Below the pieces are notes generated by a model that did not search any database, was not told the DNA's origin, and worked only from the letters and a program-made list of their open reading frames with translations. Below are positions 10,297 to 15,665 of a stretch of DNA of 57,334 nucleotides, piece by piece (position 1 is the stretch's first letter; each line of letters starts with the position of its first letter). Position numbers and translations under genes: made by a program. Origin of the DNA: Candidatus Aenigmatarchaeota archaeon (GTDB taxonomy: Archaea; Aenigmatarchaeota; Aenigmatarchaeia; GW2011-AR5); NCBI GenBank assembly GCA_043799385.1, contig JAZDNV010000018.1:1-57334 (forward strand), written 5' to 3'.

Positions 10297-10697
10297 TTAT
10301 TCCACCCGATTGATTTTACAAGCTTTTCTATTGTAATGAAATTTGTCTTGATCTCTTTTTCCATATTGACTGATTCCTTGCCTTTGAATTCGTCCGGAAC
10401 AGAAACATAAACACGCAATTTCTTGAAAGCTTTCCTTCCCTTCAGTGTCTTGTACGGCATCATTCCACGAATCGCACGACGCACGAATAATTCAGGCTTT
10501 CTCGGAAAGAAAGGACCATGCTGCGGCGAACCCTTCTTTAGCCTTTCCAGGTACTTTACAACCGTATTCTTCGGGTCGCCTGTTATTATTATTTTCTCGG
10601 CGTTGATTACCGTAACTTCATCGCCGCTCAAGAGTTTCTTGGCTGCGTAACTTGCCATTCTGCCGAGAACTGCATTGTTTCCATTTACAATAATCAT
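10293..10697 (-). CDS. rpl13: 50S ribosomal protein L13 (uL13)
   Basis: LGRMAS, GPFFPRKP and RGMMPYK. Confidence 0.97.
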   Translation of the reverse strand: MIIVNGNNAVLGRMASYAAKKLLSGDEVTVINAEKIIITGDPKNTVVKYLERLKKGSPQHGPFFPRKPELFVRRAIRGMMPYKTLKGRKAFKKLRVYVSVPDEFKGKESVNMEKEIKTNFITIEKLVKSIGWNK

Positions 10698-11029
10698 ATC
10701 AATCTCGCCTTTTCATTTGTTTCCAGCAAATCATTTATTGTTAACACCTTGCCGCCAACGACTTTAATCTTTTCCGCTGCCTGCTTCGAGAACTGCCATG
10801 CGTATATCGTCACGGGCTTTGTTATCTCGCCGCTGCCAAGGACTTTGCCTGCCACGACGACTTTTTCATTGTCTTTGCAATTATTGTCTACGTCGCTCAG
10901 ATTCATGCTAATTCTGCTCCTGCTCGGCCTCGATAACCGTTTGGCTATTTCTTTGCATACATCGCTCTTTGATTTATTCAGAGCCAGTATCAACTTTTTC
11001 AGTTCTATGTTCTCTGTTCCGTGTTTCAT
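10694..11029 (-). CDS. rpl18e: 50S ribosomal protein L18e (eL18)
   Basis: VVVAGKVLGSG and FSKQAAEKI. GGTGA SD precedes ATG 11029. Confidence 0.95.
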   Translation of the reverse strand: MKHGTENIELKKLILALNKSKSDVCKEIAKRLSRPSRSRISMNLSDVDNNCKDNEKVVVAGKVLGSGEITKPVTIYAWQFSKQAAEKIKVVGGKVLTINDLLETNEKARLI

Positions 11030-11040
11030 TCTATCACCAT

Positions 11041-11131
11041 AGCTTTGCACAAAAACCTGGCTATCGTCTTTTTGACGATAGCCTAACGTCGATGGACATC
11101 ATACAGATGTCCATCACTTTTGTGCAAAGCT
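11041..11131. mobile_element. MITE-like element, family A, copy 1
   Basis: Perfect 14-bp TIR (AGCTTTGCACAAAA / TTTTGTGCAAAGCT), 9-bp direct repeat TATCACCAT at 11032-11040 and 11132-11140, and two internal hairpins. Confidence 0.8.
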
Positions 11132-11143
11132 TATCACCATGAG

Positions 11144-11355
11144 TGCCGGGGATGGGAGATTCCAGTCTTTTCTTTTCCAGGGTTTTCTTTTTTGAAAAGA
11201 AAAGCCTTTTTGAACCCACGCAGCGACTAACGCACAGGATGTCTTCTTTTTTTCTTTCGTGTTCTTTTGATAAAGCTTTTCTTTCAAGAAAAGCTTTCTT
11301 AAGTCCTGCCCCTTTGACCATTCAAGGTTCAGCAAACTGACTTGGGTACCCCGGC
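11144..11355 (-). tRNA. tRNA-Leu(UAA) with three introns (D-loop, 37/38, 59/60)
   Basis: Removing 11321-11338, 11241-11297 and 11158-11208 gives an 86-nt cloverleaf: GCCGGGG/CCCCGGC acceptor, CAGGA-CTTAAGA-TCCTG anticodon arm, long variable arm, GTGGG-TTCAAAT-CCCAT T arm. Sits at the conserved position between rpoD and rpl18e. Confidence 0.88.
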
Positions 11356-15576: not shown

Positions 15577-15665
15577 AACTTTGCATAAAAAGTGATGTGC
15601 ATCTGTATGATGCACATCGGCGGTAGGCTATCAGCGTGTGGACGTGCCTGTTTTTGTGCAAAGCT
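15577..15665. mobile_element. MITE-like element, family A, copy 2 (inverted relative to copy 1)
   Basis: Aligns end to end with the reverse complement of 11041-11131. TIR AACTTTGCATAAAA / TTTTGTGCAAAGCT; flanks GCGATTAAG / GCAATTAAG (8/9). Confidence 0.78.

What the first reader, a model, noticed from the sequence alone, without database searches (positions are those of the whole stretch)
11032..11140. MITE-like element that duplicated the rpl18e ribosome-binding site
A 91-bp element has a perfect 14-bp TIR and sits between two copies of TATCACCAT. On the coding strand that is ATGGTGATA, which contains the GGTGA Shine-Dalgarno of rpl18e, so the insertion preserves translation. The transcript would fold into a three-way junction: the TIR stem plus hairpins GGCTATCGTC/GACGATAGCC and GATGGACATC/GATGTCCATC. 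It lies between the tRNA-Leu 3' end and rpl18e, in one of the most conserved operons.
Basis: seen in the sequence. Interest (0 to 1): 0.72.

Follow-up and report, generated by a model that had tools for sequence, protein, structure and literature searches.

The report
Archaeal mini-transposon duplicating a ribosome-binding site
This 91-base hairpin is one of 28 copies of a small non-coding element, likely moved by an IS903-type transposase, that sits between a leucine tRNA gene and a ribosomal protein gene of a tiny archaeon, flanked by two copies of the gene's likely ribosome-binding site; it is an ordinary kind of element, though its sister copies lie at a fixed distance from predicted promoters.

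Summary
Observation confirmed. Window 11041-11131 has a perfect 14-bp terminal inverted repeat, two 10-bp hairpins and a perfect 9-bp flanking repeat that holds GGTGA 4 nt before the rpl18e start, this genome's usual Shine-Dalgarno spacing. It is one of 28 dispersed copies (9-bp flank identity 77%, other lengths 23-37%). The family occurs in 13 of 69 other genomes of the order but at none of 29 orthologous rpl18e loci, so it is a MITE, not an ancient regulatory RNA. Its ends resemble IS903-group (IS5) ends; no such transposase was found in this genome, and relatives' elements gave 8-bp, not 9-bp, duplications. Keeping the ribosome-binding site is most likely survivorship, and the fold is predicted to hide it partly. 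Less ordinary: copies with GTT-type ends lie 16-17 nt from a predicted TATA box (9 of 13; 10 of 23 in relatives), whereas the GCA-type ends to which this copy belongs do not (1 of 15) and lie at gene or tRNA 3' ends (9 of 15). The scan noted IS903-type, promoter-edge MITEs before in other DPANN genomes.

The parts
11041..11131 (+). MITE copy, GCA-type ends (91 bp)
   Evidence: 28 full copies in the genome, 0 in the reversed-genome decoy
11041..11054 (+). left terminal inverted repeat
   Evidence: I4, 100% complementary
11118..11131 (-). right terminal inverted repeat
   Evidence: I4
11059..11083 (.). internal hairpin 1 (10 bp, 5-nt loop)
11091..11115 (.). internal hairpin 2 (10 bp, 5-nt loop)
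11032..11040 (-). target duplication, gene-side copy; holds GGTGA (11038-11034), 4 nt before the rpl18e ATG: likely Shine-Dalgarno
11132..11140 (-). target duplication, tRNA-side copy, 3 nt after the tRNA 3' end
10694..11029 (-). rpl18e (50S ribosomal protein L18e), 111 aa
11144..11355 (-). tRNA-Leu(TAA) gene with three inserts (about 11321-11340, 11240-11296, 11160-11208), likely introns
   Evidence: relatives' loci
15577..15665 (-). second, more decayed copy of the family in the window (GCA-type ends, flanks 8 of 9 alike)

Best explanation
The element is one of 28 dispersed copies of a non-coding, inverted-repeat-bounded family with 9-bp flanking duplications (a MITE), likely inserted by an IS5-family, IS903-group DDE transposase acting in trans, into the 14-nt spacer between tRNA-Leu and rpl18e. 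Shown: copy number, ends, 9-bp duplication, absence at orthologous loci, position of GGTGA. Inferred: a 9-bp staggered cut and fill-in copied the 9-mer, so the gene-side copy still holds GGTGA at the right spacing; the allele survived because nearly any other site in this operon would cut a gene or the ribosome-binding site. The perfect duplication makes it one of the youngest copies (6 of 28 are perfect). The element would be co-transcribed and, after tRNA 3' cleavage, form a 5' stem-loop on the rpl18e mRNA that is predicted to lower, not abolish, ribosome access. The strictly Watson-Crick hairpins are most likely kept at DNA level (arm-to-arm copying and exchange between copies), not by a host RNA function at this site.
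For: 28 full copies, decoy 0. Flank identity peaks at 9 bp: 0.77 against 0.23-0.37 for 2-8 and 10-13 bp; 6.9 of 9 against 2.5 in shuffled pairings, maximum 3.8 in 10,000; 0.85 in 23 copies of relatives. 19 of 28 touch no crude ORF call in a genome 91% covered by such calls; 7 sense and 8 antisense among 15 copies between co-directional genes (counted by eye). No hit at 29 of 29 orthologous loci, six of them from genomes that hold the family elsewhere. The family's GTTG-type end matches the annotated IS903B end at 13 of 15 letters, this copy's end at 10 of 15; IS903-group elements make 9-bp duplications (tables in PMC3281130, and PMC2577343). NF033579 transposases with related ends exist in the order and phylum. 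Stems: 1169 Watson-Crick, 12 G-U, 10 A-C and 24 other cells of 1215; this copy's two halves have different nearest relatives.
Against: No IS903-type transposase was found in this 91%-complete assembly (PF13737, PF01609, NF033579, tblastn). The four relatives' IS5 elements with an intact duplication give 8 bp, none of eight gives 9, so the exact partner is unidentified; only 1 of the 14 genomes with the MITE (G005) matched the L103 transposase. No empty allele was seen in a close relative: no genome of the same genus is held and the four runs laid cover the place thinly. Terminal arms are better matched than the duplications (12 of 322 against 27 of 207 mismatches, p = 1e-4), which neutral decay alone does not explain.
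Confidence: 0.8

Rival explanations
1. The copy has been, or is being, adopted as a cis-regulatory RNA: the stem-loop between tRNA-Leu and rpl18e protects the processed mRNA's 5' end or tunes translation or read-through of the ribosomal operon.
For: Very stable fold on the transcribed strand; 30 of 35 pairs show double changes across 36 copies; arms decay more slowly than duplications; a hairpin followed by five T's lies on each strand; GCA-type copies lie at 3' ends of genes or tRNAs in 9 of 15 cases against 10.7% of non-coding sites, where they would be transcribed.
Against: Absent from 29 of 29 orthologous loci; perfect duplication suggests a young insertion; both orientations occur; G-U and A-C cells are equally rare (12 and 10); many GTT-type copies lie upstream of predicted promoters; no Rfam family above threshold.
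Confidence: 0.12
2. The family is mobilised by another DDE family that makes 9-bp duplications (for example IS256/Mutator-like or IS4), and the likeness to IS903 ends is convergent.
For: IS5-type elements of this phylum gave 8-bp duplications; a weak IS256-type fragment lies on contig C18 (E 5e-4, under the cut-off); no full-length element with the exact ends was found.
Against: The end next to the C18 fragment does not resemble the MITE end (by eye) and no solo MITE-type end lies there; the best end matches seen are IS903B, ISAha2 and the NF033579 elements.
Confidence: 0.15
3. An ancient conserved RNA element of the rpl18e operon, or a chance or assembly artefact.
For: Position in a conserved operon only.
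Against: 28 copies in unrelated contexts with site-specific 9-bp duplications; absent from orthologous loci; junctions present in a public run.
Confidence: 0.01

Closest known systems
IS903 group of the IS5 family (IS903B, ISAha2; NCBIfam NF033579) and MITEs mobilised by it
   Same: Short terminal inverted repeats starting NGCTTTG, 9-bp duplication (ends read; duplication length from tables in PMC3281130 and PMC2577343, passages seen).
   Different: No transposase and no interior likeness to the IS ends examined; the IS903 target motif WTTYA-N9-TRAAW (PMC2577343 table) is not kept: TRAAW follows 4 of 56 own and 2 of 66 relatives' flanks; relatives' full-length elements give 8-bp duplications.
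Sulfolobus SM3/SM3A MITEs with ISC1058
   Same: Archaeal MITE of tens of copies that depends on an IS transposase in trans and persists where no functional partner is left (PMC3718332 and PMC10969869, passages seen; that ISC1058 is IS5-family with a 9-bp duplication is recalled).
   Different: Shorter (83-99 bp against 164 bp for SM3A); sequence relatedness not tested; two co-varying internal hairpins.
Bacillus cereus bcr1 repeat
   Same: Dispersed, direct-repeat-flanked element whose cruciform fold is kept by compensatory changes (PMC3184786, passage seen).
   Different: bcr1 is about 155 bp with 5-bp repeats and is shown to be transcribed; here transcription is untested.
Polymerase III-targeted retrotransposons (TRE5-A, Ty3, Ty1) as an analogy for the GTT-type sister copies
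   Same: Insertion at a narrow distance from a promoter in a gene-dense genome (search listing and abstract starts of PMC5391098, PMC5006619, PMC6101501, PMC5911963).
   Different: Those are eukaryotic retroelements; tethering through TFIIIB is recalled; here a DNA element, an archaeal BRE-TATA promoter, and no protein contact shown.

Membership tests
MITE (prokaryotic) | short, non-coding | tested here: met
   83-99 bp in 28 copies; no ORF of its own
MITE (prokaryotic) | terminal inverted repeats | tested here: met
   13-15 of 15 letters matched in all 28 copies
MITE (prokaryotic) | target-site duplication of fixed length | tested here: met
   9 bp; 23 of 28 copies at 6 or more of 9, 6 perfect; 0.85 identity in 23 relatives' copies
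MITE (prokaryotic) | dispersed copies and empty orthologous sites | tested here: met
   28 copies; 0 of 29 orthologous loci, all from other genera; no same-genus or same-species empty allele available
MITE (prokaryotic) | moves when the cognate transposase is supplied | not testable with these tools
   needs a transposition assay
IS903-group (IS5) dependent element | ends like IS903-group ends | tested here: met
   GTTG-type 13 of 15, this copy 10 of 15 against IS903B
IS903-group (IS5) dependent element | 9-bp duplication | tested here: met
   group value from PMC3281130 table
IS903-group (IS5) dependent element | a cognate full-length element with the same ends and duplication length | tested here: inconclusive
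   related ends found, but 8-bp duplications in 4 of 8 two-ended elements and no 9-bp case; none found in this genome
IS903-group (IS5) dependent element | palindromic target preference WTTYA-N9-TRAAW (shown for IS903 itself) | tested here: not met
   4 of 56 and 2 of 66 flanks; flanks have aged, and the motif may not hold for the whole group
IS1595-dependent element | IS1595 transposase in the genome; 8-bp duplication (recalled) | tested here: not met
   PF12762 0 hits; duplication is 9 bp
Known structured RNA family (Rfam) | score above a family's gathering threshold | tested here: not met

The most novel reading that the evidence does not exclude
The family has two insertion modes that go with the three variable letters of its ends. 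GT-type ends are delivered to the DNA just upstream of the BRE of archaeal promoters (9-bp target ending where the BRE begins, TATA 16-17 nt from the element edge, either orientation), by tethering of the transpososome to promoter-bound TFB/TBP; these ends themselves carry an outward-reading TATA-like 14-mer. GCA-type ends, as in this copy, have lost that and land at gene and tRNA 3' ends. That would be a prokaryotic DNA-transposon counterpart of Ty3/TRE5 safe-harbour targeting, with a natural three-letter control inside one genome.
Probability: 0.3. Interest if true: 0.72.

Novelty: new member of a known kind. Interest (0 to 1): 0.38.

Why it matters
The copy itself is ordinary: it shows how a target duplication lets a MITE survive inside an essential ribosomal operon, and it gives a lineage marker for a family confined, among the genomes searched, almost wholly to one family of small archaea. 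The family matters more than the copy. Its 28 copies split by end type into promoter-edge and 3'-end insertions, with strong statistics and an independent set in relatives. If host initiation factors guide the transposase, that is a way for DNA transposons to avoid genes in 90%-coding archaeal genomes that I did not find in print (searches, 85 of an open-access library only), and it is directly testable in vitro.

Tried and rejected
Transposase searches in this genome: PF12762, PF01609, PF13737, NF033579, tblastn/phmmer with two relatives' transposases found nothing; PF00872 gave one sub-threshold fragment on a 2.1-kb contig whose end is unlike the MITE end. A solo end-like 14-mer at C23:2237 is followed by no transposase-like ORF by eye. 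Search for a full-length element with the exact ends: 16 stretches from 4 bacterial genomes gave only short elements or no partner end; three viral scans gave 0, 69 and 15 single matches with no paired end and no transposase match. Empty allele in reads: four runs laid, no joint skipping the element, but cover was patchy, so this shows nothing; no RNA holder listed. Metagenome scan with rpl18e gave one distant locus (L046, 53%), which lacks the element by eye. The 16S rRNA 3' end was not found in the assembly, so Shine-Dalgarno pairing could not be computed; the folding script stopped before the window -18..+12 of the empty allele and before the tRNA-containing precursor. Rfam: nothing above threshold. 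IS903's palindromic target motif does not explain the promoter-edge signal. Survivorship alone does not explain it either: offsets 7-15 would also leave the promoter intact but hold 4 own and 2 relatives' best sites against 10 and 12 at offsets 16-17. Full-length IS5 elements of relatives show no clear peak at that offset (16 flanks). The Filee 2007 review was not held, so archaeal IS5 subgroup tables were not seen; supplements of PMC11602168 (18,091 archaeal MITE sequences) were not opened and may already list this family.

Full report
Observation. The minus strand folds as a three-way junction, z = -9.85 against 200 shuffles. The downstream gene is rpl18e. The upstream tRNA-Leu(TAA), 11144-11355, carries three inserts and is recognised only after their removal. 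A contig of public run X2 spans both junctions without a difference.

A family, not a single site. Iterated nhmmer on the 786-kb assembly converged on 29 hits, 28 full copies and one partial at a contig end whose flank equals that of another copy; the reversed genome gave 0. Copies are 83-99 bp, mean pairwise identity 67%. Left and right flanks agree only at 9 bp: 0.77 against 0.23-0.37 at other lengths, 6.9 of 9 against 2.5 in shuffled pairings; 23 of 28 have at least 6 of 9, 6 are perfect, this copy among them. With crude ORF calls covering 91% of the genome, 19 copies touch none, 3 overlap a stop codon by 1-2 nt, 4 hold the called start of an ORF and 2 lie inside ORF calls of doubtful start or reality; orientation between co-directional genes is 7 sense, 8 antisense (by eye).

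Relatives. A covariance model found the family in 13 of 69 other genomes of the order, 12 of them in the same family, and in 4 of 150 of a class-wide sample, all same family. Their duplications are again 9 bp (0.85 in 23 of 24 copies with both flanks). Public records that score as members are titled Candidatus Aenigmatarchaeota or 'archaeon' (the middle's output was cut). None of 29 orthologous rpl18e loci carries the element, including six from genomes that hold it elsewhere; L043 has the same 14-nt tRNA-to-ATG spacer with one copy of the 9-mer. These are other genera; no close empty allele was available.

The ribosome-binding site. GGTGA stands 4 nt before ATG in 26 of 512 long ORFs and at most twice at any other gap; rpl18e has exactly this spacing, so the gene-side 9-mer holds the likely Shine-Dalgarno. 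A target duplication always leaves the downstream side as it was, so this is what a surviving insertion in a 14-nt spacer must look like. Two other GCA-type copies have a GGTGA or GTGATAAGG-like stretch in or next to the gene-side repeat (C26:16651, C2:15913, by eye). Against 'preserves translation' taken literally: the tRNA-side copy is predicted to extend the terminal stem over the site (unpaired 0.38 against 0.78; opening energy 2.7 against 0.4 kcal/mol), and a hairpin followed by five T's lies on the transcribed strand. The effect is predicted to be modest and is untested.

The likely mover. Annotated IS903B and ISAha2 ends begin GGCTTTGTTGAATAAA and GGCTTTGTTGCACAAA; the family's ends are NGCTTTG, three variable letters, then A-rich, 13 of 15 letters like IS903B for the GTTG type and 10 of 15 for this copy. 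IS903-group elements make 9-bp duplications (tables in PMC3281130 and PMC2577343). NF033579 matches occur in 100 of 371 genomes of the phylum, 19 above the cut-off, and eight two-ended elements have related ends; but four have intact 8-bp duplications and none a 9-bp one, and none was found in this genome. So the ends are a widespread type and the exact partner remains unidentified.

The hairpins. On 36 copies (16 of 28 own, leaving out 12 with shortened or decayed hairpins; 20 of 24 relatives', leaving out two long, one cut and one weak) 96.7% of cells pair and 30 of 35 pairs show double changes, far above shuffled and slid controls (relatedness inflates such counts, and the structure was drawn from one member). 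Pairs are almost all Watson-Crick: 12 G-U and 10 A-C of 1215 cells. Terminal arms differ at 12 of 322 sites, duplications at 27 of 207, in the 23 copies with a recognisable duplication (p = 1e-4). This copy's first half is closest to C2:22692 and its second hairpin identical to three other copies, two of them GTT-type. This fits arm-to-arm copying and exchange between copies; selection for a fold that works on either strand is not excluded. Bacillus bcr1 is a published parallel (PMC3184786, passage).

Two insertion modes. Prompted by earlier notes of this scan, I trained a BRE-TATA matrix on 205 promoters without elements (TATA-to-ATG peak 27-31 nt; consensus like that in PMC6640164). Of 13 copies with GTT-type ends, 9 have a site scoring over 5 bits with its first T 16-17 nt from the element edge; of 15 GCA-type copies, 1 (Fisher p = 0.001; expected 1.4% per site). 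Six of these ten sites lie 29-32 nt before a start codon, two 41-48 nt, two have no ORF of 60 aa behind them. In 33 relatives' copies 12 flanks in 11 copies have their best site there: 10 of 23 GT-type, 0 of 5 GC-type, 1 of 5 with a third end type. The signal is one-sided, holds among flanks that already look BRE-like (6 of 12 against 1.6%; 4 of 17 in relatives), and is not IS903's palindromic motif. GCA-type copies, including this one, have their target on or within 7 nt of a gene or tRNA 3' end in 9 of 15 cases against 10.7% of non-coding sites (p = 5e-6; 3e-4 at a cautious 18%; GTT-type 3 of 13; cases counted by eye). Limits: crude gene calls dilute both nulls, the end-type split was noticed after seeing the data, copies are related, and one matrix was used for all genomes. 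Tethering to TFB/TBP is one reading; a DNA-shape preference next to bent promoter DNA, or selection linked to the TATA-like 14-mer inside GTT ends, are others.

Comparison and verdict. It works like, and passes the sequence tests for, a prokaryotic MITE (review PMC10969869, passages); dependence on an IS903-group enzyme is likely but unproven. MITEs are already reported at high density in DPANN genomes (PMC11602168, passages; its supplements not seen). I found no paper on this family or on TATA-anchored insertion in archaea (open-access library only). The scan has met IS903-type, promoter-edge MITEs in other DPANN genomes and no look-alike of this sequence. The copy is a new member of a known kind, interest 0.38; the end-type-dependent promoter targeting is the part worth an experiment.

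Noticed in passing
window 11144-11355 (-): tRNA-Leu(TAA) with three inserts (D loop about 20 nt, anticodon 37/38 57 nt, T loop 49 nt), missed by ARAGORN. The two longer inserts are A/T-rich hairpins with look-alikes elsewhere in this genome (3 and 1 places) and at several places in relatives (up to 11 matches of the region in G014). Orthologous tRNA-Leu genes carry none to several inserts, and G014 and L046 have a near-identical T-loop insert, which suggests mobile repeats that became tRNA introns.
   Followed up: partly
L086, L095, L301, L306 (G010): The same two-hairpin interior sits between quite different 15-bp ends (starting GACACCG/GATACCG/AATACCG), with 8-9 of 9 duplications in three of four; TATA-like sites lie about 17-24 nt away.
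   Followed up: partly
G000 C2:918, C13:20921, C14:38108, C21:24521: The element's first letters complete the stop codon of the neighbouring ORF call.
   Followed up: no
L082, L100 (G043); G013 copies of 150-153 bp: Long variants of the family hold further small palindromes nested in the loop of hairpin 2.
   Followed up: no
L074 (G000:C18, 2.1 kb): Small contig with an IS256-type fragment and what looks like a split IS630-type transposase (label by eye); may not belong to this genome.
   Followed up: partly
L033, L035, L036: In three relatives the tRNA-Leu gene upstream of rpl18e is inverted relative to the usual order.
   Followed up: no
L102-L105, L107-L113: Relatives' IS5 elements have 300-400 bases between the left end and the transposase gene, with open sequence on the opposite strand that may be a small second gene.
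   Followed up: no
L171 and 60 or more loci of the same Acidobacteria record set: A 106-bp element with the same GCA-type ends and 9-bp duplications but an unrelated two-hairpin interior is very abundant in one soil bacterial genome.
   Followed up: partly
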